From assembly GCA_000004985.1 (NCBI GenBank), contig GG738866.1: DNA of 64,000 nucleotides; one strand, given 5' to 3'. Below the pieces are notes generated by a model. That model did not search any database, was not told the origin of the DNA, and worked only from the letters and a program-made list of their open reading frames with translations. This DNA comes from Naegleria gruberi. Lineage: Eukaryota. Below are positions 12,945 to 63,576 of the stretch, piece after piece. The translations under genes and the position numbers were made by a program. Position 1 is the first letter of the stretch; every line of letters begins with the position of its first letter.

Positions 12945-13016
12945 CCTCCCATGCCGGGAATTGAACCCGGACCTCCTGGGTGAAAGCCAGGTATCCTAGC
13001 CATTGGACTACACGGG
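12945..13016 (-). tRNA. tRNA-Glu (anticodon UUC), 72 nt, no intron, CCA not encoded
   Basis: Minus-strand sequence TCCCGTGTAGTCCAATGGCTAGGATACCTGGCTTTCACCCAGGAGGTCCGGGTTCAATTCCCGGCATGGGAG. It folds as a cloverleaf with a 7-bp acceptor stem (one G-U), anticodon loop CTTTCAC and a T-arm GGTTCAATTCC. A T-run follows on the minus strand (TTTATTTTT). Confidence 0.9.
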
Positions 13017-13027
13017 AATACATTCAA

Positions 13028-16100: not shown

Positions 16101-18732
16101 CTCTCATCACATATCTGATAAATATTAAACTATTTTTCAGTTTTTGAATATCAGGAATGTTACCTTCCTTCTCTTTCATAACTTTTACACATGTTTTTAC
16201 ACAATCCAGAGATAAATTGAGATAAGTATTGCAAAGTTCATTAGCAAACCTCAACTCTTCTTGAGATGGAATATGCCAATTAATTTCAAAATCATCCAGT
16301 GAAATAAATTCTCCCCATGAGCTCCAATGAGAATGTTTTTTAAATTCTTCAGTATTCCATTGGCTAGCATTCACAGACTTGAGTTCCATCAAGTAATATT
16401 TTGTAAGAGAACGAAGAATATTTCTGAATAATTTTCCACTTGTCTTGACAACCTTTCTCTTGTCGCTTACATAGCATAAAGATATAATTGTTTCAAGTTG
16501 AGATCTGTACTTTAAGAGGTGATGGCCTGTTCTGTAACAAACCTGTCCTAGGATTTGTAAATAATATTGTGTTTCCATCTCGGTTAAATTCTTAAGCGAT
16601 TTTCCATCTCTATTTACAAGTTTATGATAGAGCATTGGAATAAACATTGCCAATGTCTGTTCAGGATATGCATAACTTAGTGAGGAGCACATGTGTGCAA
16701 TATTCTTTCTTGCATTAATTAAAAAGTTGGTTTCTACAAATTTGTAAATTCTCTTCAAGCAAATATCCAACAAGTCAGTAGACATTTGATTAAACAGTAA
16801 ATCACAAAGACCCCAGAACATACTAGGAGATATTATATCTGAATCACCTTGGTTTGCCTTTGGATCTTGTTGATGAGATAAGACATTGAAGATTCTTTCT
16901 AAAAGTTCAATACTCCACTCTTCGAAAATTCTAATAACCTCAGGAGGTGTTCTATCTCCAATTGAGGAACCTGTTGTACATAATGGAACACAAACCAAGA
17001 GGGAAGTATAGAATTTGAAAGTGGAGAAGGTTTTTGTTGGATCATTTACATCAATGCCAGGCAGTGTTAATTGGAGTAAATTTGAAAGATAATTTGCACC
17101 TTCAGGATAAATAGAATACTTAAGGAGAGGGAAAACAACCAAAGAAAGGGTTTCTAAAGCAGAAATAGTTTGATGAGTACTCGTTAAAGTTTCTAATGCA
17201 TAAAAACTTCTTTCCATTAATGAAGGAAAGACTTCTTCAGGAGAAATGTAAGCCAAATGCTTGAGTGAGTGATTGGCACATGTGGTCATTTGACTACTCT
17301 TTGAGAATAATGATGTCATAGCTAAAGGTTGAACTATTTGAACAAATGCTTTACAGTCATCACTGCTTAATCTATATTCCTCTGGAATCCAAGAATATCC
17401 TCCATTCTTTGAAGGAATATAATTATTCTCAGAGAATTGATTCATACCTCTTTCAATATCCAATCTCTTACCAAATTTTGTACATAAAATGAGAAGGAAA
17501 TCGGCACATTTTGTTGTCCATTGTCCTTCGTTTGAAGGCTGATAAAAGTTGGAGATGGATTTGATTAATTGTTTCAAATATTTAAGGGTATTTGAATTTT
17601 TAGAAATCATCCAAACAATTAATTTAGCTGAATTTGCTAAAAGTAAATTTTTAGCAATATCAAATGGTGTAATTAAATTAAGTTCATCTGATGGATATTC
17701 ATCATAATTCGATGGTAATGGAGTGTTACCAATAGGTAAATCAAAGCATTTCATGACTTTAGTGAAAATATATTCCAAATATGGATCCCAGTTAATATAA
17801 CCAGATTGATCTTGTGACAAATTAGCAAACAGTAAAAAGAAGCTCAAGTCCCAAGTTGGATAAACACCAATCCAATCCCAGATACCCAAAAATTCATCCA
17901 TCCATTTTCCATAGTGATTATTTTTGAATACCTCCTGACTTTTGTTGTCATTTCCTTCCAATCTTGTTGGTAAAAATATACTTAAGAAGGATTGGGCTTT
18001 GAATATTTTGTGATCATTAATACATAACATTGGTCTGAAAAATTCTAGCATTTCTTCAGTAGAATTAGTGGAGAAATACCTCTTGATTTTTCTAACCAAG
18101 TCAATTAGAGCAGCACCATGTTCTCTTGGACTATAGGTAGAAATACGAAATTTCTTGAAATATGTTTGGTCAAGAATATCATAAACTACTCTCCAATCAA
18201 AAGTAATATCGAGTACTTCTCCTTTTTTAATGAGAGAAGACAATCCATAACAACATTTTGCTTGAGTTGAAAAATCAACACTATAGATATTCTTACTAGC
18301 AATCTTTAGGATGTTGTATAATATTAAACACAATTCCTCCTTTTCCTTGATTAGTAGAGGATATTTAATCTCGGTATATCTTTTTAATAAAAGAAGAGAA
18401 TAATCTAAATGTTCCCAGTTAATATTTTCTACACAAAGATCATTTGGAGTATACATTCTAAAATGTTGAAACAATTCCTTCCTCCATTCATCACTTTCCT
18501 CTGGAATTACTTTACTAATCTCAGGTGGAAGGAATTTATGATATTTATACAACATTCTTTCTGTCTTTACTTTTTTGTTTTTGTTTTCTTCATTGTTTGG
18601 TAATTCTGCAATTATGGAACCTGAATCGGATGACAGTGTTGATGATGGTACAATCTCTTTATGAGTGGCATCGTCTTCCTCGTAGGTACGCTTCATTTTT
18701 TTATAGTCTGCTTTTGAATGGAAATTATGCAT
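13144..18732 (-). CDS. PSME4: Proteasome activator Blm10/PA200 (PSME4) homolog, 1862 aa
   Basis: Single 5.6-kb ORF with a real ATG at 18732. Size and all-helical HEAT-like repeat composition fit PA200. The C-terminus ends '...SSPSYYA', the conserved Blm10/PA200 HbYX ('YYA') proteasome-docking tail. Confidence 0.6.
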   Translation of the reverse strand: MHNFHSKADYKKMKRTYEEDDATHKEIVPSSTLSSDSGSIIAELPNNEENKNKKVKTERMLYKYHKFLPPEISKVIPEESDEWRKELFQHFRMYTPNDLCVENINWEHLDYSLLLLKRYTEIKYPLLIKEKEELCLILYNILKIASKNIYSVDFSTQAKCCYGLSSLIKKGEVLDITFDWRVVYDILDQTYFKKFRISTYSPREHGAALIDLVRKIKRYFSTNSTEEMLEFFRPMLCINDHKIFKAQSFLSIFLPTRLEGNDNKSQEVFKNNHYGKWMDEFLGIWDWIGVYPTWDLSFFLLFANLSQDQSGYINWDPYLEYIFTKVMKCFDLPIGNTPLPSNYDEYPSDELNLITPFDIAKNLLLANSAKLIVWMISKNSNTLKYLKQLIKSISNFYQPSNEGQWTTKCADFLLILCTKFGKRLDIERGMNQFSENNYIPSKNGGYSWIPEEYRLSSDDCKAFVQIVQPLAMTSLFSKSSQMTTCANHSLKHLAYISPEEVFPSLMERSFYALETLTSTHQTISALETLSLVVFPLLKYSIYPEGANYLSNLLQLTLPGIDVNDPTKTFSTFKFYTSLLVCVPLCTTGSSIGDRTPPEVIRIFEEWSIELLERIFNVLSHQQDPKANQGDSDIISPSMFWGLCDLLFNQMSTDLLDICLKRIYKFVETNFLINARKNIAHMCSSLSYAYPEQTLAMFIPMLYHKLVNRDGKSLKNLTEMETQYYLQILGQVCYRTGHHLLKYRSQLETIISLCYVSDKRKVVKTSGKLFRNILRSLTKYYLMELKSVNASQWNTEEFKKHSHWSSWGEFISLDDFEINWHIPSQEELRFANELCNTYLNLSLDCVKTCVKVMKEKEGNIPDIQKLKNSLIFIRYVMRGGNTLFPEFDKDILEDMNQYPNSRLIEAGLCVAKRCPDVPLTVGYEQVCDTLHELTTIILEHRSDKDPNLIGKVCKVFFPMIAMRGGNTRYRYKKKKSSHDFVKQHSYKDVFTKTPNKYPRYLLLIQALLEYKVRCVIHNESIPYTKSHQRLLDDLFRLSLHSYSEVRKRAQSVLMSCINKFSDKVIKSFLPLLIDVLADKNSTDEQRTGAIFILEKPFAVSCVIRDWDLCSKLIMILCQTSHIEKQSIQQRLAQLYETYFNAFYHIQIATDQDREKYRSLIINVSDLAKMNGGWHWKYQTLVSSFLMLMIRPDQVFPIEAAKFTIRQMISDLEKTRIISYEAVNLILSQYKPRQPTKMVEPEPKTKHNTLDWVALGTNLNSAEEFKNAKFYEKNYFGWFNLPSKVEVYDYSAPKDTTQHNIFKKEIYSTVIEEDFVQNFIELLSIRDDGFNESNAQLFKGLFQVFPCEAGSVGILDMCKPYIQSLLMPTIGTGKTEETHHVALISEIMGGLIRGMKHWDYDQQVKAIHEFIIPEIFEKVLENCSMSCISELCEGFEFAVCDKDIRRIGWIVDFIAKKTRAALEKKDNEADSNAQVRYLKYLYGIVGEISWRSPTIMKQLLEDIFSISLSHHSEQVREYVGLFISFIFKSLWHPRRLEHNNLPTFGLVNASTDESQHEFLRKFNLKVYGSLESMEKSLRSLPSESPQFERQYSDFKNLSKTVLCFVASLFNSSSPHCGSGEIMNHIKLVSKIYEHTTSHDEDLQVICQNDIIILSGYAFTSRLANELIDFLYDEIVTKECSNFANWSIRSALLECLQIFAYRQQFFLQEKLPKLFEIITAMLRDSQPEVRQMASITLSGFLKISSTDYSKKLIPEFQEKATKPKKTTNDKLPKESIDRHSGILGLSAVALAFPYSIPDFMPEMLVFLAKFSNDSVQSIRETVKKTFQEFIKCHSDMWQIHEMKFTEDQLRTLHDLFQTSSPSYYA

Positions 18733-19204
18733 TTCGAGGCAATGGGTAGTGGCAATGTGATGGAGTGCTTTGTGCGTTCATGTTGTGTGCTTGATTCAAC
18801 CTTTAGCTTCGCTGCTGAAAAATATTGAAGTCTTAAAATTAAGATTATTATTCCGGAAGGCACAAACAACTAAAAATACTTGTATTATTACTTGCATTAT
18901 ATAATTCCAAATAATCATTTAGATGATCTAATTGGACCATTACAATACTAATAAATCATATTCTTGTTCGTTTGATGTTTGGAATTAGATCATTTGTTAT
19001 TCTCATGTCTTCAAAATATTCTATCCAGATAGCCTGGTTGAGAATCTTTCTTGAGGTGTTGGAAATATTCTTGTCGTGTTCAAACTTGTTGAAGAAGGTC
19101 ACCACAAAACACTTAAAGCGAAGGGGTGATAAACTGCATATTCAATAAAATAATAGATTTTCGAATCGAAAAAAAACAATACAACTACTAGACGGCATTT
19201 AACA

Positions 19205-20812
19205 ATGAGAGAACAAAACAACTATTTCAAACCACAACAAAGCCGTTATCAACCATACGACCGTAATGGTGGTGGTAGTGGGGGATACAATAATCAAAGA
19301 GGTGGCGGTGGTGGCCGTTATGGAGGTGATAACGAATTCAGAAACGATAGAGGTCCAAGATCATTCAACGATAATGAAGCAAGTGCTGGTCCAGCACACA
19401 TCAGAGAAGATGAACCAGAAGAAGATTTATTCAATAAGAGAAACACTGGTATTAACTTTGAAAAGTATGAAAATATTCCTATTGAAGTTTTTGGTAGAGA
19501 TCCTCCAACTCCACTCGCCACTTTTGAAGAAGCCGATTTACATGAACTTTTAATGACTAACGTTAAGAAGAGTGGTTATACTAAACCAACACCAATTCAA
19601 AAGCACTCTATGCCTGCTATTGTTACTTCAAAGAGAGATATGATGGCTTGTGCTCAAACTGGTTCCGGTAAGACTGCTGCTTTCCTCTTGCCAATTATTA
19701 ATGCTCTCTTAAAATCAGGAATTCACAAGGATAAGAGAAGATTTGCTCCAAACAAGGGTAATCCAAAGGCTGTCATTCTTGCTCCAACTAGAGAATTGTG
19801 TCAACAAATTTATGATGAATGTAGAAAGTTCATCTTCCAAACTTATTTGAAGACTGTAGTTGTTTATGGTGGTGCTTCAAGTGGTTATCAAATGAAACAA
19901 TTAGAAAGAGGTGTTGATATTCTTGTTGGTACTCCAGGTAGAATGAATGACTTTATTCAAAGAGAAAAGCTCGACATGTCTGGTGTTCAATATTTGGTTT
20001 TGGATGAAGCTGATAGAATGTTGGATATGGGTTTCGAACCACAAATTAGATCTATTGTCGAAGGTAGTGGAATGCCACCAAAGGGTGATCGTTTAACTTT
20101 ATTATACAGTGCTACCTTCCCTAAGGAAACACAAAAGTTAGCTCTCGACTTTTTACATGATGAATTGTTTGTTCAAGTTGGTATTATTGGTGGTACTACT
20201 GATAACATTACACAAAGTTTCTATCAAGTTGACAGACGTGGTAAACAAGATAAGCTTGTTGAAGTTTTGACTGAAAAGAAGGAAGAAAGAGAAAAGACTC
20301 TTGTCTTTGTCCAACAAAAGAGTACTTGTGATCGTATTTATGAATTGTTGACTCCTCTTGGATTCAAATGTTCAGTTATTCACGGTGATAAGGATCAAAG
20401 ATCTAGAGAAAGATCATTGAGACAATTCAAGGATGGTTATACTAATATTCTTGTTGCTACTGATGTTGCTGCTAGAGGTTTGGATATTGAAAAGGTAGCT
20501 CACGTTATCAATTATGATTTGCCAAAGGAAATTGATTCATACATTCACAGAATTGGTAGAACTGGTCGTGTTGGTAACTTGGGTATTGCTACTGCTTTCT
20601 TTGATCCATCTGAAGATGGTAAATTGTGTAGAGAATTGGTTAAGATTTTGAAGGATGCCAATCAAGAAATTCCAGAATTTATTGAAAATGCTGCTTACAA
20701 TCCATTTGGCGGTAGAGGTGATGGTGGTTTCAGAAGAGGAGGCGGTGGCTTCAGAGGAGGTAGAGGTGGTGGTAGAGGTGGATTCGGTGGTGGATTCAAC
20801 AAGAGATGGTAA
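19205..20812 (+). CDS. DEAD-box RNA helicase, DDX3/Ded1 subfamily
   Basis: All DEAD-box motifs are present: Q motif, 'AQTGSGKT', 'PTRELCQQI', 'DEADRMLDMGF', 'SAT', 'HRIGRTGR'. The N- and C-termini are RGG/GYNN-rich ('GGRGDGGFRRGGGGFRGGRGGGRGGFGGGFNKRW'), as in Ded1/DDX3. Intronless. Confidence 0.85.
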   Translation: MREQNNYFKPQQSRYQPYDRNGGGSGGYNNQRGGGGGRYGGDNEFRNDRGPRSFNDNEASAGPAHIREDEPEEDLFNKRNTGINFEKYENIPIEVFGRDPPTPLATFEEADLHELLMTNVKKSGYTKPTPIQKHSMPAIVTSKRDMMACAQTGSGKTAAFLLPIINALLKSGIHKDKRRFAPNKGNPKAVILAPTRELCQQIYDECRKFIFQTYLKTVVVYGGASSGYQMKQLERGVDILVGTPGRMNDFIQREKLDMSGVQYLVLDEADRMLDMGFEPQIRSIVEGSGMPPKGDRLTLLYSATFPKETQKLALDFLHDELFVQVGIIGGTTDNITQSFYQVDRRGKQDKLVEVLTEKKEEREKTLVFVQQKSTCDRIYELLTPLGFKCSVIHGDKDQRSRERSLRQFKDGYTNILVATDVAARGLDIEKVAHVINYDLPKEIDSYIHRIGRTGRVGNLGIATAFFDPSEDGKLCRELVKILKDANQEIPEFIENAAYNPFGGRGDGGFRRGGGGFRGGRGGGRGGFGGGFNKRW

Positions 20813-21067
20813 AAATCCTCTATAGTTTTTTGCGAGCACAATAAATTGTGGCTCACAAGCGCGGTAGGAATAAGTGAAATAGAGATCTAGTTCAGGTAGT
20901 TAAATTGCTAATTGCAATTTTCAATGCAATGTGAACTGTTTAGAGCTAGATTTTGAAGAAACATGTGTTGTCTATCGTGCTTGCGCAGCTTGTAAATATT
21001 ATTAATAACTGAGTACCCTAGGCTATTTAAGGCCAATTTTGTTTCTAAGGCAACTAACTGAATATTT

Positions 21068-21111
21068 TGTGATGCGATTTTTTGGTTAATAAAATGATTA
21101 ATCGCATCACA
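21068..21111. other. Perfect 12-bp inverted repeat (TGTGATGCGATT / AATCGCATCACA) with 20-nt loop, 260 nt downstream of the helicase stop
   Basis: Read directly from the sequence in the helicase 3'-flank / hydrolase 5'-flank region. Function unknown. Confidence 0.35.
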
Positions 21112-21264
21112 TTTTTATGAATTAGTTGAGTTAGTATGTGAACATTGTTTCGTTTTTCAAAAATATCAAGTTCTCTTTCAATGTCTAATAATATTTCTAT
21201 TCTTCAAGAAAAGATAAATTTTAAGAGTCCGTATCAGTGCTATTAGGAAAATTAAGAAAAAAAA

Positions 21265-42357: not shown

Positions 42358-45300
42358 ATGTCTGCTCTTAGCCACATCCTTAACACCCTCACCCTCCTCA
42401 TCACAATACTTCTGCTCACATCTCTATCACTCGGAGCCAAACAGCCATACATTCTTCCATACTGTGCCAAACTAACAGTAGAACCTTACAATGTGAAAAT
42501 TGCTACAGCTTCCACAACCATAACTTTCAAATCGACATCTGATCTGTGGTTCTTTCTCGACTCTTCATACTTTGCCCTTATTCCAAACAATACAGATCAT
42601 GGCAAGTTTGCTGACTTTGCTCGTTATTGTGTCTATTTGATGGACACTTCAACTTCCTACACTTATTTACCAGCTGTGAATAGTATGAATTTGACGAGTA
42701 CTAAAACTTTCACAGCCACATTTACCAGTTTACCAAATAACAAGAGACTCTCACTGTCAATGTCAAGTTGTTTCTTTACATTATACAGAGAGAGTGAATA
42801 TCATCAAGAGCTTGTGCCAATTCCACCAATTAGTATCTACAATTATGCAACTGGTACTGGAACTGTTTCATCTTTTGCTCCGACCTATGATTATGATTCA
42901 TACTATGCCAAGTATTGTCTTAATAAGGCAACGAATGATTCAAGATATTCAGCAGAGACTTTCACCAGCACAACTTCAACATCAACTGTAGCCAGTTCTT
43001 TATCTTTGATATCGGAAAGCACTTTTGCAAAAACATATTCCAATTCTGGACTATCTATTTCTGGTAAATGGAAAACAGACTCGTTCTCTTCGCAAATTAA
43101 TTCATTCACCTATTCCAATTACAATTATCAACTCTTCAATCCAATCAATATGAATTTCAAGAAAAATGCAACTTTTATCAAGTATCCTCTCAAATGGAAA
43201 CGTCACATTAATGTGGCATCTGAGTCTGTCAGTTTCACAGTGCCATCAGATACTTCCATCACAAAGAGATGTGCAGATCCTCAAGAATTACAAGATTTAC
43301 TCGACACCTGCATTTCTACCAATCAAATTTTTAAGGTAAATGATGTAGAAGGAGGAACTCCATGGCATTATGGAGCTAATCCTTCATCTCCAGCTGAGGT
43401 TTCAGATGTCAACATTTTAATAACCTATTCTTATTACGAAGCTATTTTCTATTCAGGACTGGCTCTTCCTTATTTGAGAGCTCTCATAGTTAATGGAACT
43501 TTGACAATTGCAAGAACTGACATTTCAAATTCATATTTTTATTGTGCAAAGAATACTTTGAGAAACCAATTCCAATATTGGGATTCCACAGTTTATCACT
43601 TTATCAAGTTTAGTACTATTCATAACATGTATTCATTTGATTCAAGTAGGAAGAGTTATGATTTGAATACAATGGCAGGAATTGGCATTGGATCTCAAAA
43701 TATTCAATTGACTAATTTCGAAAATCAAAATGCAAAGAGTGAGAATGGAGTTTCTTTGCAGATTAGTGATACTTCACTGGATGATACATTCTATTCTCAA
43801 ACAAGAGTTGTTCCAATCTATCAATATAACGAAACAATCAATTCAGTTTTTGATTTGACATTTATTTATGATTCTGAGCTTGGATCCAAGACAGGTGGTG
43901 CTTTGGTGACACAGGAAGATTTTGTGACAACTTATAAATCAACTGCTTGTGCTGAAAAGTATGGTTCCAGACTTGATACTCAATTGAGCAATTTCTTTAC
44001 GTCAAGTGCTTATACTTTTATTAGAATTCCAGAGTTTGCCAATAGACTAAACTATTCCAAGTCTATTTCCTATAATATAACATCAAACTCTATACAAATG
44101 AATTATCTAAACACTGAGCAAGCCGTTCAGTTCAGTTTACTAGTAGATTCTTCATTATTAGTTTACAAAGAGGCAAGAATTTCACTTGCAGATTATTCCT
44201 TCTTTGTAACACCAAATAGACAAGAATGGAATGAAATGAATGCTACCTTGAATGTAAATATAACAAATAGTGGAGAAATTAAAGGAACTTTTCAAGTGAC
44301 AGCAACTTGTGGTTCACCAATCACAGTTAAGGAAGCTAATGTCAAGACTGCTGACATTGAAAATGGAAAATCAACTTTGATTCAATTTGGAGTGACCAAT
44401 TCAGAATGGAAATCATATAAGGATTTACTAAATGTTTCCTGTTTGGTAAATGTTAAAATTATTAAGGAAGAATTATGGACCAGTACGAATAAGGAAATTA
44501 CTATATATGAAACTATTGTTTTGGATCATGGTTACTTTGTACCATATTGCGAACAAAAATATAACGAGCCATTTATTGAATTTTCTGAGAGCCATTTGAA
44601 TCAATCCAAATTTACAAGAATTTCGAATACGTTTTACAATTCTATTCTATTCGCAGTGAAAAGCAATACAACAGATCAAATTTCTGCCAGATACAGTATA
44701 TCAGTCATCCCAACAGACGATAACCCATTTATTCTTTCAAATTCTTCAATACTGACCTTTGAATTAATACCTCAACAAGAAACAACTCTGAATTTGGAAA
44801 TTGTGGGAATTGACTTTGAGAAAATCATGAAAGAACGAATTAATCTGAGCAATTATACCTTCCAAATCACAATCCAGAATATGGATACAGCTGACTGTTG
44901 GTCCGATTATGGAAAATCCATCATCCAACCATTCACGTTCCATGTCGAATATTTGTGTCCAGACAATTTCGTAGGAGTTTTGTGTGATATTCCAGTATGT
45001 TATGGATACAATGCCACAGATATGGAGAACGTATGCTATGGACATGGGTCATGTCTAGCACCAGATACTTGTTCCTGCTTGAATGGTTATACTGCAGATA
45101 ATTGCTCTATACCTATTTGTTTTGATTACAATTCGACTGATGTCAGAGTGTGCTCATCACACGGTGAATGTTTATCACCAGATAATTGTCAATGTTCAAA
45201 TGAATGGACTGGTGATGAGTGTAGTATTCCAATATGTTTTGGAATTCCAGCAAATATTGAATCCACTTGTTATGGTCATGGTAACTGTTCTAATCCAGAT

Positions 45301-48300
45301 ACGTGTCAATGTATTTCAGGATATACATCATCTAATTGTTCAATTCCAGTTTGTTTTGGATTTAATGCTTCAGATATTTCAAATGTTTGTTCAAATCATG
45401 GACAATGTGTTTCACCTGATAACTGCCAATGCGAAAATGGTTATACTGGACTTAATTGCTCAATTCCAATTTGTTTTGGTAAGCATTTACTCATGAATGA
45501 ATCAGGTTTGATCTGCTCAACTCATGGTCATTGTGTGGATACAGACATTTGTCTTTGTTTTGATGGATATTATGGTCCACAATGTGAACTACATAATTGC
45601 TTCAATGTCCCGTTCAACGATTCAAACGTATGTTATGGACATGGTAATTGTACAGAACCAGACCAATGCCAATGTCAAGATGGCTACACTTCATCAAATT
45701 GCTCAATTCCAATTTGTTATAGTTATAATGCATCTGATATTTCAAATGTCTGTTCTACACATGGCAAATGTACTGAACCTGATGTGTGTGCATGTGATAG
45801 TGGGTACACTTCTTTGAACTGTTCAATTCCAATTTGTTTTGGAATTCATTTAGCAATGAATGAATCAATGTTAATTTGTTCATCACATGGTTATTGCGTT
45901 GAACCAGATACATGCATTTGCGAGAATGGATATTATGGAGCAATGTGTGAAATGCATAATTGCTTTGGTGTGAAATTTAATGACTCCACTGTATGTTATG
46001 GACACGGAAATTGCTCACAACCAGATTCCTGTGTTTGCTCAGATGGTTATACATCTGATAATTGCTCAATTCCAATTTGTTTTAACATCACAGCTTCAAA
46101 TTCACAAGTTTGTTCATCACACGGTGAATGTTTATCACCAGATAATTGTCAATGTTCAAAAGAATGGACTGGTGATGAGTGTAGTATTCCAATTTGTTTT
46201 GGAATTCCAGCAATTAATGAAACTGTTTGTTATGGACATGGTAATTGTTCTAATCCAGATACGTGTCAATGTAAATCAGGATATACTTCATCGAATTGTT
46301 CAATTCCTCTTTGTTATGGATTTAATGCTTCAGATATTTCAAATGTTTGTTCAAATCATGGACAATGCCTTGCTCCTGACACTTGCCAATGCGAAAATGG
46401 ATATACTGGACTTAATTGCTCAATTCCAATTTGTTTTGGTAAGCATTTACTCATGAATGAATNNNNNNNNNNNNNNNNNNNNNNNNNNNNNNNNNNNNNN
46501 NNNNNNNNNNNNCATTCCAATTTGTTTTGGAATTCCTGCAACCAACGAATCTGTTTGTTATGGACACGGCAACTGTACCTATCCAGACTATTGTACATGT
46601 AAGCATGGTTTCACATCTAGCTACTGCTTCATGCCAATGTGCTATGGATACAACGCCTCAGATGCTCAAGTTTGCTCTTCACATGGCCAATGCATCTATC
46701 CAGAGTTGTGTAAATGCTCAACTGGGTATACCTCAGAAAATTGTTCAATTCCTATTTGTTTTGGCGTTCATATCTTGATGAATGAAACAGCTCCCTGTTC
46801 CTCACATGGCCATTGTGTTGCTCATGACATTTGTCAATGTTATGACGGATATTATGGAGATAATTGTGAAATACATAATTGTTATGGAGTACCATTCAAT
46901 GATTCTGCAATGACTTGTTATGGCCATGGTAATTGTTCATCTCCAGATATTTGTCTTTGTGAAGAAGGTTATGTTTCGGATAATTGTTCGTTACCAGTTT
47001 GTTTTGGGCTCAATTCTTCTGATTCTAATGTTTGTTCTTCTCATGGACAGTGTATTAAGCCCAATGAATGTGAATGTTCGGTTTATTTTACAGGATTGCT
47101 TTGTGATATTCCAATATGTTTTGGAATTCCAGCAAGTAATGAATCTACTTGTTATGGACATGGTAATTGTTCTAATCCAGATACGTGTCAATGTATTTCA
47201 GGATATACTTCGGATAATTGTTCAATTCCAGTTTGTTTTGGATTTAATGCTTCAGATATTTCAAATGTTTGTTCAAATCATGGACAATGTATTTCACCTG
47301 ATAACTGCCAATGCGAAAATGGATATACTGGACTTAATTGCTCAATTCCAATTTGTTTTGGAAAACATTTACTCATGAATGAATCAGATTTGATATGCTC
47401 AACTCATGGACAGTGTGTGGATACAGACACTTGTCTTTGTGGTGATGGATATTATGGTCCACAATGTGAACTCCATGATTGTTTCCAAGTGCAATTCAAC
47501 GATTCAAACGTATGTTATGGACACGGTAATTGTACACATCCAAACCAATGCCAATGTCAATATGGTTACACTTCATCCAATTGCTCAATTCCAATTTGTT
47601 ATAGTTATAATGCATCTGATATTTCAAGTGTTTGTTCTGCACATGGTCAATGTATTGAACCTGATTTATGTGAATGTCTAAATGGTTACACTTCTTTGAA
47701 CTGTTCAATTCCAATTTGTTTTGGAATTCATTTAGAAATGAATGAGTCAATGTCAATTTGTTCATCACATGGTTATTGCGTTGGGCCAGATACATGCATT
47801 TGTGAGAATGGATATTATGGAGCAATGTGTGAATTGCACAGTTGTTTTGGTGTGAAATTTAATGACTCCACTGTATGTTATGGACATGGAAATTGTTCAC
47901 AACCAGATTCCTGTGTTTGCTCAGATGGTTATACATCTGATAATTGCTCAATTCCAATTTGTTTCAACATCACAGCTTCAAATTCACAAGTTTGTTCATC
48001 ACACGGTGAATGTTTATCACCAGATAATTGTCAATGTTCAAATGAATGGACTGGTGATGAGTGTAGTATTCCAATTTGTTTTGGAATTCCAGCAAGTAAT
48101 GAAACTGTTTGTTATGGACATGGTAATTGTTCATATCCAGATACGTGTCAATGTAAATCAGGATATACTTCATCGAAATGTTCAATTCCTATTTGTTTTG
48201 GATTTAATGCTTCAGATATTTCAAATGTTTGTTCAAATCATGGACAATGCCTTGCTCCTGACATTTGCCAATGCGAAAATGGTTATACTGGATTTAATTG

Positions 48301-51300
48301 CTCAATTCCAATATGTTTTGGAAAACATTTACTCATGAATGAATCAGATTTGATCTGTTCATCCCATGGTGGGTGTATTTCACCTGATACATGTCTATGC
48401 GATAATGGATTTTATGGCCCACAATGTGATTTATTCGATTGTTTTGGAATACAATATAATGATTCGAATACTTGTTATGGAAATGGTAAATGCATTTCAC
48501 CAAATTTGTGCGAATGTTACGATGGATGGACATTTACAAATTGCTCCATTCCTTTATGTTATAATTTAACAGCCTCTGATACGAATGTTTGTTCTTCACA
48601 TGGAAATTGTCTGAAACCTAACGAATGCCAATGTCACGAAGGATTTACATTTGAAAATTGTTCAATTCCAATTTGTTTTAACGTGAACGCATCAGATTCT
48701 AATATTTGCAGTGGACATGGTACATGTATCTCTCCAAATAATTGTTCATGTGAAGAGAATTATTTTAATGCCAATTGTGAAGAAACTACTTGTTTTGGAC
48801 TTGTTTCTAATAGTTTACAAAGTTGTGGTGGATTTGGTAATTGTACAGCATTTGATATTTGTGAATGTGACTCGAAACATGTTGGAGAAAACTGTTCCAT
48901 TACTTTTTGTTTCGGATTACTTTCTAACAATTCGAACAATGTTTGCTCGGGCAAAGGTCAATGTTTAGAATACGACCACTGTAACTGTTCACAAGGTTAC
49001 TATGGAGAATCATGCGACTTATTCGATTGTTTCGACATGCCAAAAAATTCTTCACTTGTCTGTTCAGGAAAAGGTAAATGTTTAGATTCGAATATTTGTA
49101 AATGCGGTATAGGATTTTATGGAGATTATTGTCAAGATTTTGATTGTTTTGGAATTCACAAAGATGATCCAAATGTCTGTTCTAGAGTTTCTCCATGTAC
49201 TTCTCCCAATAATTGCTCCTGTCCAGCTGGATATTACGGAGCTAGTTGTGAACTATTCAATTGCTTTGAAATTCAAAGCAACTCCTCTAAAGTTTGTTCT
49301 GAACATGGGAAATGTCACTTGCCAAATAATTGTTCTTGTGAAGAAGGATATTTTGGGAGAGATTGTTCAGAATTTGAATGTAATTTCATTCACAAAAATA
49401 ATGAAACTGTTTGCAGCTCAAATGGAAAATGTCACTCACCAAATAATTGTTCATGTTTTGATCATTATTATGGAGAAGATTGCGAATTATTTAATTGTTT
49501 TGGGAAAGCATTCAATTCTTCACTGGTTTGCTCTGGAAATGGCCAATGCCTCGATTACAATAATTGTAAATGTAATATATCATTTTTAGGTGTGGAATGC
49601 CAAGATTTTACCTGCCATGGATTACATTTTAATGATTCGAATGTTTGCAGTGGAAATGGAAGCTGTTTATCTTTGGATAATTGCACATGTTTTGATGGAT
49701 TTACTGGGAGTGATTGTGAAATTAATATTCCAGATCCAATTATTGAGAGAAATGAAACTAATAACCAAACTGAAACAACAAATTCAACTCTATTTAGTAA
49801 TCAAACAAGTAGTGATGATAATTCTACCCTGTTTGATAATTCCACTTTGATTAATGGAAATAATCAAACTGAAATGTCTAATTCAACTTTAGAAAGCAAT
49901 CAAACTGTTGTTATTGAAAACTCAACACTACCATTAACGAATCAAACCCTTAATTCATCTTCCATAAATGGAAATCAAACTGAGGTATCAAATTCAACAG
50001 CACTCACAAGTAACCAAACTAATGTTATTGATAATTCTACTTCTTCTGAAAATTCAACATTATCAGCCACCAATCAAACTTTGAATTCCACTTCTGTAAA
50101 TATTAATAACCAAACCGAAACTAATTCTACTGATTCCAATAATTCCACTCTAGAGTCGTGTTCTCAACATGACGGTATACAATGTTCTGGTAATGGATTT
50201 TGCAATCATTCTGAATGTATTTGTGAAAATGGTTACCACGGAACCGATTGCAATCTATTCGAATGTTTTGGAATCAATTCGACTAATTCTCAAGTCTGTT
50301 CTGGTAATGGCCAGTGTGAATCTCCTAATTTATGTGCCTGTAAAGAAGGATATCTATCACCCAATTGTTCCTCATTCACTTGCTTTTCCAAACTAAACTC
50401 AGAACCATTAGTTTGCTCTGGACACGGATATTGCCAAGATCTAAACTCGTGCCAATGTGATTCTGGTTTCTATGGCCCTCAATGTGACCTTATCAAATGC
50501 TTCTCCGTCCTCTCCAATGAATCATCAACAGTTTGTCAAGGTCGTGGAAATTGCACAAATCCTGACACATGTCAATGTGAAACGGGATATCACGGTCCAG
50601 AATGTAACATTCCAGTATGTTTTGGCAATTACAATGAAAATTCAACAAGTGTTTGTAATGGAAATGGTCAATGTTTTGCAAAGGATACATGTCAATGTAA
50701 TGAAGGATATCTTGGTGAAGAATGTCATTTGACAGTCTGTAACAAAACTTCATGTGTTTATGGTGTTTGTGAAAGTGCTTTGAATTGTAAATGTAATGTT
50801 GGATATGGAGGAAAAAATTGTGAGCAAGTCATTTGTTTTGGTCATTTGGCATCTGACATTAATGTTTGTAAGGGAAATGGATATTGCATAGCTCCTGACA
50901 AGTGTAATTGTTCAAGTTTGAAATATAGTGGAAAGGAATGTCAATTCGAACAAGATTCTGATGAGCAATGCTCCATTTATGGAGATTTAACAATTTTTAA
51001 TTCTAATTGGATGAGTGAAAGTTTGAAAATTGGTTTGAGTGGAAAATTGAATCAAACTTTGAGGTCAACTATCAAATATTCTCCTAATTTATTTTCAATG
51101 AATAGTTTCAAATATCTAATCAAGATTCAAAATAACGGAATTAGAAGTTTCGAATATTCTATTCGATCATATTGTGAAAATGGAAATTCTTTCAAGAGTT
51201 TAGGAAAGATGGTTAACTCTATTGAAAGCTCTAAATCATTAACTCAATACGAAAGTATCCAAATTGAAAATGATGCTTTTGGATTTGCATTCTATTCTCT

Positions 51301-52696
51301 TGACGAAAGATTTGAAAATATCGAATGCAATATCGAACTGAGTATGAAACCTCTAGATAGAAAAGACAATTGTTTGGTTTATGATTCTATTCATGATCCT
51401 ACTTCTTCATATAACTACAAAATATTGATGATATTTGAGAATGTTGATTCTTGCCTCTTTATGAAAGAAAATGAAAATGGTCTAGTTGACTTGACCATTC
51501 AAAATTCAGTCCTATCAAGCCTCACAAATCAATCTTCTGAATTATACAATTATGAAACCAATTCTACAGAAAGCTATCTTAAAATTCTTTCCATTTTCCC
51601 ACAGAAGCGTAATAATTGGCAAATAATCCAGTCAACCAATGACAACAACACAACAACCTCAACATCTGCATCTCTGTTAATCACAGCTCAATTAATCAAT
51701 CCAGAAAATCTCTACGGTATATTCATTCCTGCTCTATACTGCCAGGACGACAGTATTTCAAGTGGGGACTCCTTTACAACAAGTTCTAGCTCTCTAACTC
51801 TTTATCATGAAATGTCAAAATTAGTTTTCCAATTCAACATTACAATTCAAAACATTTCACAAGATTTGATTGATTATGGAAGAGTCAGAGGTGGTAAGGA
51901 AGGCACAGCATCCATTAATATCGATTCCATGAACCTTAATTGTTCATTACTACTCATACCATCACCTGCCAAATGTTGGACATCAAAAATTGATAACCAA
52001 TCCAAACGTTCTCTTCCACAACCTTCTACTCAACTCCAACTCTACCTCCAATCACTCAAAAAACTAATATGTCACTTTACCCTGCCAATTGTCTCTGGCG
52101 AATTTAAATTCATCCAAAGTGTCAGATCATTCGAAATTGCCCTAACCTATACTTGTATGACTCTTGGATTCGCCTCAATGATTTGCACAACCAAAGGTCC
52201 AAGAGATCGTAAACACTCCCTACTACAGTTAGTAGATTTCGTAAAACAAACTAGACGAAACAAGCTCGAACAAGATGAACAAGACGAAACTCATTCCACC
52301 CATGAAACAGAGAAAAATTTACCTTACTGCGACAATTGTGGGCATAAAACCTTGAAAAAGGCGAAATTTGAGATTAGCTTTGATGGTCAACAATCAGAAA
52401 GTGAAATTGGATTTTTCGTGTGCGAACAGCAAGAATGTTTTGAAGCATTGTGTTCGTTATACAATGAAAATTATAGTGAATATTTCACATGTTATGATTG
52501 TAGATCTGGTCAATTGGTGAAATTCCCGCCATTTTTGATGGTGGGTGTGGATTGTGTTGATGATTTGCCTGCTGGTGCAGAATCACAAATTTTGTTGAAT
52601 GCCTTTGATGCTGATGAATATGGAGATCTTGATGAAGAAACAGTAGACGAAACATTTGATACAGTGTTATTGGATTCGAATACTAGTAGATCTTGA
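42358..52696 (+). CDS. Giant secreted/type-I-membrane EGF-like-repeat receptor-like protein (>3400 aa), interrupted by an assembly gap
   Basis: ATG at 42358 is followed by a signal peptide ('MSALSHILNTLTLLITILLLTSLSLGA'). A Cys-poor N-terminal domain of ~850 aa comes first, then roughly 60 EGF/tenascin-type modules ('CS.HG.C..PD.C.C..GYT...CSIPICFG') dense in N-glycosylation sites. These are followed by a Ser/Thr/Asn-rich stalk, further EGF modules and a non-EGF domain. A candidate TM 'IALTYTCMTLGFASMICTT' is followed by a 'KGPRDRKHS' tail carrying 'CDNCGH...C....C...CYDCRSG' and an acidic C-terminus. The ORFs 42358..46602 and 46457..52696 are separated only by the N-gap. Confidence 0.6.
45228..48340 (+). 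repeat. Intragenic tandem repeat, ~962-bp unit (~10 EGF modules), at least 4 copies at ~90-97% identity
   Basis: The unit start 'GTAGTATTCCAAT(A/T)TGTTTTGGAATTCCAGCAA' recurs at 45222, 46183, 47101 and 48065. Long near-identical stretches are shared (for example 45301-45480 vs 47161-47350). The assembly gap falls inside copy 2. Confidence 0.7.
46463..46512. other. Assembly gap (50 N)
   Basis: Run of N bases. It lies within the high-identity tandem repeat array of the EGF-repeat gene, so the true length is unknown. Confidence 0.95.
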
Positions 52697-53079: not shown

Positions 53080-55401
53080 ATGTTTCCACAACAACAATTT
53101 GACAATAGACAGCAAATGTCACATCAAGACGAAGAAGATGGCGGCTCTGGATCGTTTCATCTGCCATCGATTCATACGTTTATTCAGAATTCGAATAGTG
53201 GTAATTCGCAGCAACAACCACATCATAGCTATCCAAGTCCACATTATCCATTTTCTTCTCCATTTCTTTCGGCTTCCCATGGTTCGAACAGTTCAAGACC
53301 ACGTTCTCAAGATTCGATAATGAGTGGTCTTTCGAATTTCAGTAATCATCATTCATCACATTCGAATAATGTTTCTAATAATTTCCAATATCATCACCAA
53401 CAGTTTTCGAATAATCAGCAACACAATAATCATCAGGATTATTCTAATAATCATAATCAAATGGAAGATGAATCACCAACCATGTCCTCTTCAACCTCCT
53501 CCTTTTCGAATAATGACAACCAACTTTCGAATAACAACCAACATCGAACCCAACGATCCAATTCCTCTCTGATGACCAACCACCAACTCAACAGAAAAGC
53601 AGTCATCACTCCAAATGGCATTAATCTACCTCCAAGTCTTTCCCACAACAATTATTCGAATCCTCACCAACACTATCCTATTCTACCCCAGCAACAACAA
53701 CAACACAACCTTGTTACTCCACAACAACAACCTCCATCCAACAGCACCACGCCATCGTTGTCCACTACCAATCACATTTCTAATAATGTAGTTATTGGAA
53801 CCTTTCCAGTTGGAAATTCCTATTCTTATCATTCACCTCAACAATCTCTTCATCACGTGCAACAACAACTTTATATTCATCACGATCCACAACAACAACA
53901 AACTTTCTTTCCCACCACTCCAAATTCAACTTCATCTTCAACTGCTCCTCCTCCGATGGTGGTGGTTCATCATCAACCTTTAAATGCACATGTAATGATG
54001 AATACCAATACTACTAATAATAATACATTGGCCAATAATAATAATAATTATTATAATCATTCTCATGGTGCTGCTAATAATAATGCTAATAATGCTAATA
54101 ATAATGAATTTTATCCACCATTGCCACCAAAGCCATCACGTCCAGTGCCAATTTCCAATATTTCATTCAGTGGCATTGTTAATAATTATAATAATAATAA
54201 TAATAGCAGTAAGGATAATCAATTGTCTTGTGCATCATTGTCGACAAGTAATGCTTCGTCAGTGAATGGACAATCGGCAGTGATGATGACGAATCAGTTT
54301 GGGATTAATCCACTACCTTGGGATAATAATAGTAAGATGATTAGGTCATTTTCGAATTTTCAACCTAAACCACCTAAAAAGACAAAGAGTTCTGTAAAGC
54401 AATGTGAAAATCCAAAGTGTAATGCTACTGATACTCCATTATGGAGGTAAGTATTTGATATTTTTATTGTAAATATTTAACATTTTACAATAATTATGTG
54501 AAATTTCTTAATTTGAATCACATGTATTAGAAAGGGATATTTCGTCGAAGGTGGAAGAAGAGCCAATTTGTGTAATGCTTGTGGACTTCATTATCGTAAG
54601 GGACATTTTTGTAAATTTTGTAATGAAATTTACAGAGATGTTAATGAGCTCGTTTCCACAGAGCCATGGATTTTGTGTTGCGCTTGTGAGAGGTATATGC
54701 ACAGAAAGTGTGTTCAACAGGCAGGTATTTCCCTTCCAAAATCTCAAAGTCATCAACACATTTCACAATCAGTGAATGATCAGTTCTATTGTGATGAATG
54801 TGGAGGTACTAGGACATTACAATCATCCATCACTGCAACTGCAATCAACAATGATCCTGCCACTGCTGTCAGCAGCACTTCCACAACAATGCTCACTGAA
54901 AAGATGGATGAAACCTCCTTTGAATCAAGTCCAATCCTTAATGCAATTGCCAACAATTCAACCTCACCACCAAAGACATCACCTGGTTGTAGACCTCTTT
55001 CATTCCAAGCTCCTCCATCAACTGCACAAGTGAGAGTTGCAACTAGACCATTCACTGTGAGTGCAGACAGAGAGAATGTAGTCTCACTTTTAATGAGACA
55101 CAATGAGACCAACGTGATGGGTATGATGAATGCTCCAAATCCATTTGTAAATAATACTGCTTCTGCTGCAAATGTTGAAGAAGAAAATGGTGAAAATCAC
55201 AATTCTTCACAACAACATGAAACAACCTCTGGTCTCAACAATTATTACAATTTGAAGAATAGACCACTTCCTCCAATTCCATCCAATAATGGAAAAGTTT
55301 TTGCAGAGCAAACAAATTCAACAACAACCTCACCACCAAATATGAGAGAAGGTAATACTCTACCTTCCATTAATTTCCTACTCACACCTCCAAATAATTA
55401 A
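53080..55401 (+). CDS. GATA-like zinc-finger transcription factor (poly-N/Q-rich) with atypical finger spacing
   Basis: Exon 1 is 53080..54446 (real ATG). The intron spans 54447..54530 (GTAAGT...TATTAG, phase 2). Exon 2 is 54531..55401. The spliced finger reads 'CENPKCNATDTPLWR|KGYFVEGGRRANLCNACGLHYRKGHF'. The TPLWR and CNACGL hallmarks are present, but the spacing is C-X4-C-X22-C-X2-C rather than the canonical C-X2-C-X17/18-C-X2-C. A second Cys/His cluster follows ('CKFCNEIY...CCACERYMHRKC'). Confidence 0.6.
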
Positions 55402-63504: not shown

Positions 63505-63576
63505 CTCCCATGCCGGGAATTGAACCCGGACCTCCTGGGTGAAAGCCAGGTATCCTAGCCATTGGACTACACGGGA
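63505..63576 (-). tRNA. tRNA-Glu (UUC), second copy, identical over 72 nt to 12945..13016
   Basis: Identical sequence. The immediate flanks are also conserved: 'TAAAATTATCC' on the 3' side and 'TTCAWATTGAAAATATT' at -12 on the 5' side. Confidence 0.9.

What the first reader, a model, noticed from the sequence alone, without database searches (positions are those of the whole stretch)
42358..52696. Giant EGF-repeat receptor-like gene with at least four tandem ~962-bp intragenic repeats and an assembly gap inside the array
An open frame of more than 10 kb encodes a signal peptide, a ~850-aa Cys-poor N-terminal domain and ~60 tenascin-type EGF modules, followed by a glyco-stalk, more EGF modules, a candidate TM and a Cys4 cytoplasmic tail. 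Copies of a 962-bp unit (~10 EGF modules) start at ~45222, 46183, 47101 and 48065 with >90% identity. The 50-N gap sits inside copy 2, so the true copy number is unknown, and collapsed or expanded copies are likely. High-identity intragenic tandem repeats are hot spots for unequal recombination, which could give length-polymorphic surface receptors, for example for adhesion or self/kin discrimination in a social amoeba.
Basis: partly seen in the sequence, partly recalled or inferred. Interest (0 to 1): 0.6.

Follow-up and report, generated by a model that had tools for sequence, protein, structure and literature searches.

The report
HAP2-like head on giant EGF stalk
This is one very large surface-protein gene of the amoeboflagellate Naegleria gruberi (not a social amoeba): its long EGF-repeat stalk has grown by duplicating blocks of repeats, and its tip resembles the gamete-fusion protein HAP2, a resemblance that routine annotation misses.

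Summary
Two ORFs (42358-46602 and 46457-52696) flank the window's only gap (50 N, 46463-46512). Together they encode one type I glycoprotein of at least 3,428 aa: signal peptide, an 864-aa Cys-poor head, about 46 six-Cys EGF modules (not about 60), an N-glycan stalk, a conserved juxtamembrane domain, a transmembrane helix and a zinc-ribbon-like tail.

The 960-bp unit is 8 modules, not about 10. Only two full copies exist (45223-46182 and 47105-48064, 93% identical). Copy 2 is cut by the gap after 280 bp. Copy 4 keeps only three modules. The 590 bp after the gap are only 60-72% similar to the other modules. The latest event duplicated a block of at least 11 modules (93.8% identity, dS 0.15, dN/dS 0.29).

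Eight window ORFs exactly match Naegleria gruberi NEG-M proteins, so the "social amoeba" reading fails. Homologues exist only in Naegleria and Willaertia, each with its own block duplications.

The parts
42358..42435 (+). Start codon and signal-peptide-like hydrophobic N-terminus (aa 1-26).
   Evidence: Kyte-Doolittle maximum 2.09 at aa 7-25.
42358..44949 (+). N-terminal head of 864 aa with 12 Cys, predicted to be mostly beta strand.
   Evidence: Its only homologues are from N. gruberi (two paralogues), N. fowleri and W. magna.
43936..44406 (+). Region homologous to HAP2/GCS1 (aa 527-683). It holds the C..(N/T)QL..F motif, the (L/I)PE(Y/F) motif, the 'hIEhD' strand and the start of the Ig-like domain III.
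44494..44943 (+). An extra beta-sandwich after the domain III-like part (aa 713-862), ending in the invariant CWS..GK motif.
   Evidence: AF2 pLDDT of about 50-80 in this stretch. Invariant columns. No Pfam match.
44986..45222 (+). EGF modules A01-A02 (diverged b-like and h-like).
45223..46182 (+). Repeat unit 1: 960 bp, eight EGF modules a-h (39+40+42+39+40+42+39+39 aa). Modules e f g are an older copy of b c d (363-bp period).
46183..46462 (+). Repeat unit 2: modules a, b and the first 14 aa of c, cut by the gap. 95.7% identical to the start of unit 4.
46463..46512 (.). Assembly gap (50 N) inside module c of unit 2. The reading frame shifts across it, so the length is a placeholder.
46513..47104 (+). 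Five diverged modules B01-B05 (a', b/e', c', d/g', h'), 60-72% like the others. They look like an older 5-module unit.
47105..48064 (+). Repeat unit 3: a full copy of unit 1 (93.2% nucleotide identity).
48065..48661 (+). 'Unit 4': modules a b c, followed by diverged d-like and h-like modules (B14-B18). Over the first 279 nt it is 95.7% identical to unit 2 and 89.6-90.3% identical to units 1 and 3; over all 363 nt of a-c it is 85-87% identical to units 1 and 3.
48662..49717 (+). Nine more diverged EGF modules (B19-B27).
49715..50152 (+). Asn/Ser/Thr-rich stalk: 146 aa with 23 N-glycosylation sequons.
50159..50941 (+). Seven membrane-proximal EGF modules (C01-C07).
50942..52132 (+). Cys-poor juxtamembrane extracellular domain of about 390 aa. 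It is conserved in N. fowleri (42% identity) and W. magna (33%). Its fold is unknown.
   Evidence: The AF2 model is unusable (pLDDT 38). No Pfam or PDB match.
52133..52192 (+). Transmembrane helix (EIALTYTCMTLGFASMICTT), followed by the invariant K-x-PRDR motif.
   Evidence: Kyte-Doolittle 1.39. Aligned with the more hydrophobic segments of the orthologues.
52193..52696 (+). Cytoplasmic tail of 167 aa plus the stop codon.
52328..52438 (+). Invariant C-x-N-C-G-H ... V-C-E-x-Q-x-C-F-(D/E)-A-L motif: four Cys, a candidate zinc ribbon.
   Evidence: Invariant columns C461, C464, C492 and C497. Weak Pfam hit to Zn_ribbon_NOB1, E 0.0042, in 2 of 3 members.

Best explanation
SHOWN
- Window 42358-52696 is one gene of Naegleria gruberi NEG-M. 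The assembly breaks it at a repeat.
- It encodes a type I membrane glycoprotein of at least 3,428 aa.
- The parts, in order, are:
  - a signal peptide;
  - a head whose second half is homologous to the HAP2/GCS1 (fusexin, class II fusogen) ectodomain, including its Ig-like domain III;
  - one extra beta-sandwich;
  - about 46 six-Cys EGF modules, interrupted by an N-glycan-rich linker;
  - a conserved 390-aa juxtamembrane domain;
  - one transmembrane helix;
  - a cytoplasmic tail with an invariant four-Cys, zinc-ribbon-like motif.

INFERRED FROM MODULE SIMILARITY
- The EGF array grew stepwise. An ancestral 5-module unit (a b c d h, about 597 bp) gained an internal b-c-d copy (e f g, 363 bp), giving the 8-module, 960-bp unit.
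- That unit duplicated in tandem.
- Most recently (dS about 0.15) a block of at least 11 modules was copied about 1.9 kb downstream.
- The scaffold gap falls inside this block. It most likely hides at least the rest of unit 2 (about 0.7 kb), and possibly more, closer copies.

INFERRED MECHANISM
- The rod-like glycosylated EGF array holds the HAP2-like head far from the cell's own membrane. That distance is of the order of 100 nm if extended, taking 2-3 nm per EGF domain from general knowledge.
- At that distance the head can bind or insert into another cell's surface. It cannot complete the canonical class II hairpin, which needs domain III, the stem and the transmembrane helix to be contiguous.
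- The protein is therefore best read as a fusexin head re-used for cell-cell recognition or tethering. Stalk length is tuned by unequal recombination, and the conserved tail couples it to the cell interior.
For: - **One gene.** Both gap flanks lie in EGF modules of the same type and orientation, with no stop codon. The N. fowleri orthologue is a single 2986-aa model from an assembly that is ungapped here. The W. magna locus has one uninterrupted ORF of 3275 aa.
- **Organism.** Eight exact protein matches to N. gruberi NEG-M.
- **Repeat history.** Unit 1 versus 3 is 94.6% identical and unit 2 versus 4 is 95.7%, but unit 1 versus 2 is only 91%. The block is 93.8% identical, with dS 0.151, dN 0.044, dN/dS 0.29 and 61 of 61 Cys kept. 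Repeat periods of 363, 597 and 960 bp are seen.
- **Recurrent block duplication in the family.** The best module match within a protein averages 0.71-0.83, whereas the best match across species never exceeds 0.65. N. fowleri has internal copies at 98-99% identity. W. magna has copies at 87-96%.
- **HAP2 relationship, sequence evidence.** PF10699 is the top Pfam family for 4 of 5 heads, always on the same profile positions, about 186/280-437/451. The N. fowleri head exceeds the gathering score (33.6-36.5 bits against 27.4). The family profile hits Fusexin1 at E about 1e-3. It also hits A. thaliana HAP2, weakly (E 0.56), with the motifs in the same order.
- **Topology.** There is no hydrophobic segment between the signal peptide and the C-terminal transmembrane helix. 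The helix, the PRDR motif and the Cys motif are conserved across three genera.
Against: - The window protein's own Pfam score (19.3 bits) is below the gathering cut-off, and one paralogue (P0002) gives no hit.
- Only the C-terminal half of the HAP2 profile is matched. The N-terminal 430 aa give nothing. In HAP2, domains I/II and the fusion loops would lie there.
- hhalign against the first 399 aa of the canonical Naegleria HAP2 is weak (E 0.014, probability 3%).
- The head has few Cys, whereas HAP2 ectodomains are disulfide-rich (general knowledge).
- No expression, localisation or polymorphism data exist, so the tethering function is pure inference.
- The gap prevents formal proof that the two ORFs are joined.
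Confidence: 0.6

Rival explanations
1. Generic EGF-repeat adhesion or receptor protein, essentially the first reader's view without the social-amoeba part. The head is just a string of Ig-like beta-sandwiches, and the HAP2 similarity reflects only a common Ig/CARDB-like domain.
For: - Foldseek returns only generic tandem beta-sandwich proteins at TM about 0.1.
- The strongest sequence match to a solved structure, Fusexin1, covers only the domain III-like 75 residues.
- The window protein is below Pfam's cut-off.
Against: - The Pfam matches extend about 100 positions upstream of domain III, into the HAP2-specific C..NQL / LP.Y / IE.D segment. They do so in the same order in four divergent proteins.
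- One orthologue passes the curated threshold over 256 residues.
- No other Ig-like Pfam family scores better.
Confidence: 0.15
2. A working gamete or cell fusogen: a true HAP2 paralogue that still merges membranes. This could happen after proteolytic removal or folding-back of the EGF stalk, or by acting in trans with the canonical HAP2.
For: - The HAP2-family relationship.
- Naegleria keeps a meiosis and syngamy gene set and has several HAP2-annotated orthogroups (PMC9928731).
- The head, transmembrane helix and tail are conserved across three genera under purifying selection.
Against: - About 2,500 residues, including rigid EGF modules and a second globular domain, lie between the domain III-like part and the transmembrane helix. 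Canonical class II fusion needs these elements to be adjacent (established knowledge of class II fusogens).
- The region that should carry the fusion loops is not recognisably conserved.
- A canonical HAP2 is a separate gene, EFC41606 in orthogroup OG0000563.
Confidence: 0.12
3. Assembly artefact. The two high-identity blocks on either side of the gap are the same region assembled twice (two haplotypes), or the two ORFs belong to different genes brought together by scaffolding.
For: - A gap sits exactly between the two blocks.
- The reading frames differ across it.
- False duplications at gap edges are a known assembly artefact (general knowledge).
Against: - The copies differ by 6.2%, with dS 0.15 and both copies constrained. 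This looks like old paralogous copies rather than two assembled copies of one region.
- The right-hand contig starts with five modules that have no counterpart left of the gap.
- Tandem copies also occur within each contig: unit 1 with unit 2, and unit 3 with unit 4.
- Orthologues assembled without gaps show the same architecture and their own internal duplicates.
Confidence: 0.05

Closest known systems
HAP2/GCS1 gamete fusogens and archaeal Fusexin1 (fusexin superfamily, Pfam PF10699)
   Same: - Type I orientation with an N-terminal extracellular beta-rich head.
- Matches in the same order to profile positions about 186/280-451, including the C..NQL motif region and the Ig-like domain III.
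   Different: - The head is separated from the transmembrane helix by an extra beta-sandwich, about 46 EGF modules, a glycan linker and a 390-aa domain, instead of a short stem.
- The N-terminal half is not recognisably HAP2.
- It has few cysteines.
- A canonical HAP2 is encoded elsewhere in Naegleria genomes.
Tenascin/teneurin-type EGF arrays (Pfam PF25024 EGF_TEN, PF23106 EGF_Teneurin, PF07974 EGF_2)
   Same: Contiguous six-Cys EGF modules best matched by these models, forming a long extracellular rod.
   Different: - Modules are 39-42 aa, with a 10-13-residue first loop carrying an N-glycosylation sequon.
- There is no YD shell, FN3 or fibrinogen domain.
- Topology is type I, not type II as in teneurins.
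- The organism is a protist, so the relationship is at the level of the domain, not of orthology.
Multi-EGF type I receptors of phagocytes (MEGF10, Draper, CED-1, PEAR1, SCARF)
   Same: Signal peptide, EGF array, single transmembrane helix and cytoplasmic tail. Pfam EGF_PEAR1L also hits (E 1e-28 to 1e-35).
   Different: - There is no EMI domain.
- There is no NPxY or YxxL motif in the tail (read).
- The tail has a zinc-ribbon-like motif instead.
- The array is several-fold longer.
Surface adhesins with intragenic tandem repeats that vary in copy number (for example yeast FLO/ALS adhesins, mucins; general knowledge)
   Same: In-frame tandem repeats in the extracellular stalk of a surface glycoprotein. 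Repeat turnover is lineage-specific in every homologue examined.
   Different: - The repeats here are blocks of folded EGF domains (5-11 modules, 0.6-1.9 kb), not short Ser/Thr-rich units.
- The visible copies are already 6% diverged.
- Polymorphism between strains has not been shown.

Membership tests
HAP2/GCS1 (Pfam PF10699) | Score at or above Pfam's gathering cut-off (27.4 bits). | tested here: inconclusive
   The window head scores 19.3 bits (E 4.7e-4) when the sub-region is scanned. It gives no hit when the whole head is scanned. The N. fowleri orthologue scores 33.6-36.5 bits, above the cut-off. W. magna scores 24.9, paralogue P0003 scores 20.2, and paralogue P0002 gives none.
HAP2/GCS1 (Pfam PF10699) | Conserved motifs in the same order, and Ig-like domain III. 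| tested here: met
HAP2/GCS1 (Pfam PF10699) | Complete class II three-domain ectodomain with fusion loops at the tip of domain II. | tested here: inconclusive
   Profile positions 1-180 are matched by none of the five heads. The AF2 model has pLDDT below 50 over aa 172-600.
HAP2/GCS1 (Pfam PF10699) | Domain III followed by a short stem and the transmembrane anchor. | tested here: not met
   No hydrophobic segment occurs before aa position about 3,300. The EGF array, linker and C-domain intervene.
HAP2/GCS1 (Pfam PF10699) | Required for, or sufficient for, gamete or cell fusion. | not testable with these tools
   This needs genetics or heterologous fusion assays.
EGF-like domain arrays (tenascin/teneurin type) | Repeated six-Cys pattern matching the EGF profiles above their cut-offs. 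| tested here: met
   EGF_2 at 170.8 and 370.4 bits, and EGF_TEN at 147.8 and 355 bits. There are 279 Cys in the arrays, equal to 46.5 modules. Modules are listed.
Type I single-pass membrane protein | N-terminal signal peptide, one C-terminal transmembrane helix, and basic residues on the cytoplasmic side. | tested here: met
   Signal-peptide-like segment with Kyte-Doolittle 2.09. The transmembrane helix is weak in the window protein (1.39) but aligned with clearer helices in the orthologues. It is followed by the invariant K-x-PRDR motif.
   There are two full copies (93.2% identical), one copy cut by the gap after 280 bp, and one copy of three modules. Five diverged modules lie between copies 2 and 3.
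Dictyostelid (social amoeba) gene | Genome of origin is a dictyostelid. | tested here: not met
   Exact matches to eight Naegleria gruberi NEG-M proteins on one 469-kb scaffold.

The most novel reading that the evidence does not exclude
A class II fusogen head (HAP2/fusexin) has been re-used in the Naegleria/Willaertia lineage as the tip of a roughly 100-nm glycosylated EGF stalk. It would act as a long-reach device for capturing or recognising a mating partner, or another cell, before the canonical HAP2 acts. Rapid block duplication in the stalk would change reach or compatibility between strains. This would be a fusexin working away from its own membrane, and a handle on the still unobserved sexual cycle of Naegleria.
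Probability: 0.15. Interest if true: 0.8.

Novelty: new variant of a known kind. Interest (0 to 1): 0.55.

Why it matters
HAP2/GCS1 is the ancestral eukaryotic gamete fusogen. Its mechanism depends on the head, stem and membrane anchor being contiguous.

A conserved family in which a HAP2-like head sits about 2,500 residues from the anchor would mean one of two things: the fold has been recruited for something other than hairpin fusion, or the accepted geometry is not obligatory. Either outcome interests people working on cell fusion and on the origin of sex.

Sex has never been seen in Naegleria, although its genomes suggest it. A surface protein with a HAP2-like tip is a concrete candidate marker to look for.

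There is also a practical point. The similarity disappears when full-length proteins are scanned, and the N. fowleri and N. gruberi proteins have never been cited under the accessions searched. Standard annotation therefore labels them only 'EGF-like' or 'predicted protein'.

The repeat and gap part of the finding is by itself ordinary: a repeat-induced assembly break in a draft genome.

Tried and rejected
- **Dictyostelid origin.** Rejected by exact matches to N. gruberi proteins.
- **Word-indexed homology searches.** The head alone and the 5-sequence head alignment both found nothing. The exhaustive search did find relatives.
- **Spanning the gap, or finding more relatives, in JGI metagenomes.** A 41-nt exact pattern from the right flank gave no match. 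A degenerate-pattern scan with the head alignment also gave none.
- **Finding the public gene model for this locus.** None of the five candidate products starting at Met codons 46631-47375, nor the three starting at 47738-47825, is in the collection. Look-ups of the neighbours gave no annotated N. gruberi locus. The annotation status therefore stays unknown. No self-hit appeared or 32 either.
- **C-domain as an internal duplicate of the head.** hhalign E 0.58, rejected.
- **Fold of the juxtamembrane domain and tail.** The AF2 model has pLDDT 38 and is unusable. There were no significant Pfam or PDB hits beyond a weak zinc-ribbon match.
- **Foldseek of the head model against the PDB.** Only generic beta-sandwich matches at TM about 0.1. 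The afdb50 library was unavailable.
- **phmmer of the best-scoring N. fowleri sub-region against the PDB.** Nothing found.
- **Synteny with the N. fowleri and W. magna loci.** None, judging by the neighbours' Pfam content.
- **Gene-conversion tracts between the two blocks.** The longest identical run, 77 bp, is not unusual under a uniform model (P = 0.40).
- **Rfam.** Only two tRNAs in the window.
- **Literature.** Nothing on these accessions or on this architecture.


Full report
**1. What is in the sequence**

On the + strand there are two long ORFs, 42358-46602 (1414 aa) and 46457-52696 (2079 aa). They overlap only formally, across the single N run of the window at 46463-46512, which is 50 N.

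The last codons before the gap read ...SIPICFGKHLLMNE. The first codons after it read (S)IPICFGIPATNES. Both flanks therefore lie inside EGF modules of the same family and orientation. The left flank ends on codon position 1 and the right flank starts on codon position 3. An intact frame therefore needs a missing length of 1 mod 3. Fifty is 2 mod 3, so the N run is a placeholder and the apparent frame shift means nothing.

**2. Protein anatomy**

- A hydrophobic N-terminus with signal-peptide character (aa 1-26).
- A head of 864 aa with 12 Cys.
- 12.5 EGF modules before the gap and 27 after it.
- A 146-aa Asn/Ser/Thr linker with 23 sequons.
- Seven more EGF modules.
- A Cys-poor domain of about 390 aa.
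- A weakly hydrophobic segment, EIALTYTCMTLGFASMICTT (Kyte-Doolittle 1.39), followed by KGPRDRKH.
- A 167-aa tail.

That makes 46.5 EGF modules, not about 60. Pfam calls them EGF_2, EGF_Teneurin and EGF_TEN. The protein has 132 N-x-S/T sequons in all, and the EGF modules carry about 1.85 each.

**3. The repeats**

The unit is 960 bp and holds eight modules, a-h, of 39+40+42+39+40+42+39+39 aa. Modules e f g are an older copy of b c d. That is the 363-bp period found by Tandem Repeats Finder and seen as the 363/597 spacings.

The module map is:

b' h' | a b c d e f g h | a b c-[gap] | a' e? c' g' b' | a b c d e f g h | a b c d? h? | diverged modules.

- Units 1 (45223-46182) and 3 (47105-48064) are complete and 93.2% identical.
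- Unit 2 is visible for only 280 bp.
- 'Unit 4' keeps only modules a-c.
- The 592 bp after the gap are 60-72% like the other modules.
- Unit 1 resembles unit 3 (94.6%) and unit 2 resembles unit 4 (95.7%) more than neighbours resemble each other (about 91%).

The last event was therefore the duplication of a block of at least 11 modules, 45223-46461 onto 47105-48343. That block shows 77 differences in 1239 nt, dS 0.151, dN 0.044 and dN/dS 0.29, with all 61 Cys kept.

These are real, constrained, fairly old copies rather than allelic duplicates. With a longest identical run of 77 bp they are only moderate substrates for recombination today.

The description as four >90% tandem copies of about 10 modules is not.

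**4. Organism**

Eight other ORFs of the window are exact matches to Naegleria gruberi NEG-M proteins on one 469,335-bp scaffold. They are EFC44769, 44770, 44772, 44777, 44778, 44779, 44855 and 44858. The 'social amoeba' reading is therefore wrong. A metagenome contig (L001) is 99.7% identical to window 17206-21196, so a near-identical strain occurs in the environment.

**5. Relatives**

An exhaustive HMMER search with the head found only three cluster representatives in 1.84 billion:

- two N. gruberi paralogues, EFC49472 and EFC42319, both at 34% identity;
- Willaertia magna KAL9658154, at 29%.

The C-terminal domain found a fragment that belongs to N. fowleri KAF0982280 (FDP41_011210), 2986 aa, named 'EGF-like domain-containing protein'.

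N. fowleri and W. magna share the whole architecture. This includes the transmembrane helix, the K-x-PRDR motif and an invariant C-x-N-C-G-H...V-C-E-x-Q-x-C-F motif in the tail. That motif has a weak zinc-ribbon Pfam match.

The W. magna locus has one uninterrupted ORF of 3275 aa, so its 2171-aa gene model is too short.

Paralogue EFC42319 carries the same head on a different C-terminal architecture.

**6. Repeat turnover is a property of the family**

EGF modules resemble other modules of the same protein far more than any module in another species. The mean best identity within a protein is 0.71-0.83, and the maximum across species is 0.65.

- The N. gruberi paralogue EFC49472 has a 5-module unit repeated at least 3.5 times. 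Its gene model ends, with frame anomalies, inside its array.
- N. fowleri has internal copies at 98-99% identity, at offsets of 591 and 873 bp.
- W. magna has copies at 87-96%.
- A short-read contig of N. fowleri type also breaks inside the array.

Block duplication and assembly failure in these arrays are thus recurrent.

**7. The head is HAP2/GCS1-like**

Sequence evidence:

- Scanned alone, the N. fowleri head hits Pfam PF10699 (HAP2-GCS1). The hit has E 2.1e-8 and 33.6 bits against a gathering cut-off of 27.4. It covers residues 464-719 on profile positions 182-436 of 515.
- Scanning only the homologous 310-320-aa sub-region makes PF10699 the top family in four of five heads. All four hit the same part of the profile:
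  - window aa 527-683 (E 4.7e-4, 19.3 bits);
  - EFC42319 (E 2.4e-4);
  - W. magna (E 9.2e-6);
  - N. fowleri (E 2.9e-9, 36.5 bits).
- The family profile hits archaeal Fusexin1 (7p4l) at E about 1e-3.
- It also hits A. thaliana HAP2 (5ow3), weakly (E 0.56). The motifs come in the same order: C..NQL..F, LP.Y, an IE..D strand, and N.GE.e..f.l.f.C of domain III.

Structure evidence:

- A template-free AF2 model of the window head is poor overall (pLDDT 50.9) but reasonable over aa 600-860.

Caveats:

- The first 430 aa match nothing.
- hhalign to the first 399 aa of the canonical Naegleria HAP2 is weak, although it aligns on the C..GNQL motif.
- The canonical HAP2 of Naegleria is a different gene: OG0000563, EFC41606, KAF0982544/5 (PMC9928731 supplement).
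- The HAP2 hit vanishes when the full-length proteins are scanned. This explains why public names mention only EGF.

**8. Mechanism**

The parts list and its conservation are shown. The function is inferred.

Class II fusogens act by inserting the tip of domain II into the target membrane. They then trimerise and fold domain III and the stem back, so that the transmembrane anchor meets the fusion loops (established knowledge). Here an extra beta-sandwich, about 46 EGF modules, a glycan linker and a 390-aa domain lie between the domain III-like part and the anchor. The canonical hairpin therefore cannot bring the two membranes together.

The most economical reading is a fusexin-derived head used for recognition, tethering or insertion at a distance, on a stiff glycosylated spacer. 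Unequal recombination between multi-module blocks changes the length of that spacer. The conserved transmembrane helix, PRDR motif and zinc-ribbon tail provide the link to the cell interior.

The rivals are a generic EGF adhesin with a chance Ig-like resemblance, a still functional fusogen, and an assembly artefact. They are weighed in their own sections.

**9. Verdict**

The repeat-plus-gap observation is real but over-stated, and by itself it is ordinary.

The interesting result is the cryptic HAP2-like head on a giant EGF stalk. It is conserved in Naegleria and Willaertia, and I found no description of it in the searchable literature. I class it as a new variant of a known kind.

Noticed in passing
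window 12945-13018 (-) and 63505-63576 (-): Two tRNA-Glu(UUC) genes with identical Rfam scores, about 50 kb apart. They are the only RNA genes found in the window.
   Followed up: no
L001 (ENA ERZ929261, contig k127_227156) against window 17206-21196: A metagenome contig is 99.7% identical over 3992 bp, with 10 mismatches and 1 gap. A near-identical N. gruberi strain was therefore present in that environmental sample.
   Followed up: partly
L004 10233-20060 (Willaertia magna JBEGDK010000005.1): The locus holds one uninterrupted ORF of 3275 aa, but the deposited model KAL9658154 has 2171 aa. The model seems to splice out about 1100 in-frame residues of the EGF array.
   Followed up: partly
P0002 (N. 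gruberi EFC49472 / XP_002682216), C-terminal 200 aa: The paralogue's gene model ends abruptly inside its own 5-module EGF repeat, with frame-anomaly-like residues (...FMIFHCHDGY......SNSSCEIPLC...). This suggests a second assembly or model break in an EGF array of the same genome.
   Followed up: no
P0003 (N. gruberi EFC42319 / XP_002675063): The same HAP2-like head is joined to a different body: three or four EGF modules, a long N/S/T-rich linker, an unrelated region of about 800 aa, a clear transmembrane helix and a short tail. The head is therefore used as a module in more than one Naegleria surface protein.
   Followed up: partly
P0005 (N. fowleri KAF0982280), aa 464-719: The Pfam HAP2-GCS1 hit passes the curated cut-off when the head is scanned alone. 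It is absent when the full 2986-aa protein is scanned, and absent from the precomputed domain list. Annotation pipelines therefore miss it.
   Followed up: yes
window 53080-54450 (+): A 456-aa ORF directly downstream of the gene has no Pfam family. Its product is not in the protein collection, unlike most neighbouring ORFs. It may be unannotated, or it may contain an intron.
   Followed up: no
window 42358-52696: No public protein containing this gene's head or C-domain was found, although its neighbours EFC44778 and EFC44779 are present. The gene may be unmodelled or mis-modelled in the N. gruberi annotation. Alternatively it may be hidden in a sequence cluster represented by an EGF-only fragment.
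   Followed up: partly
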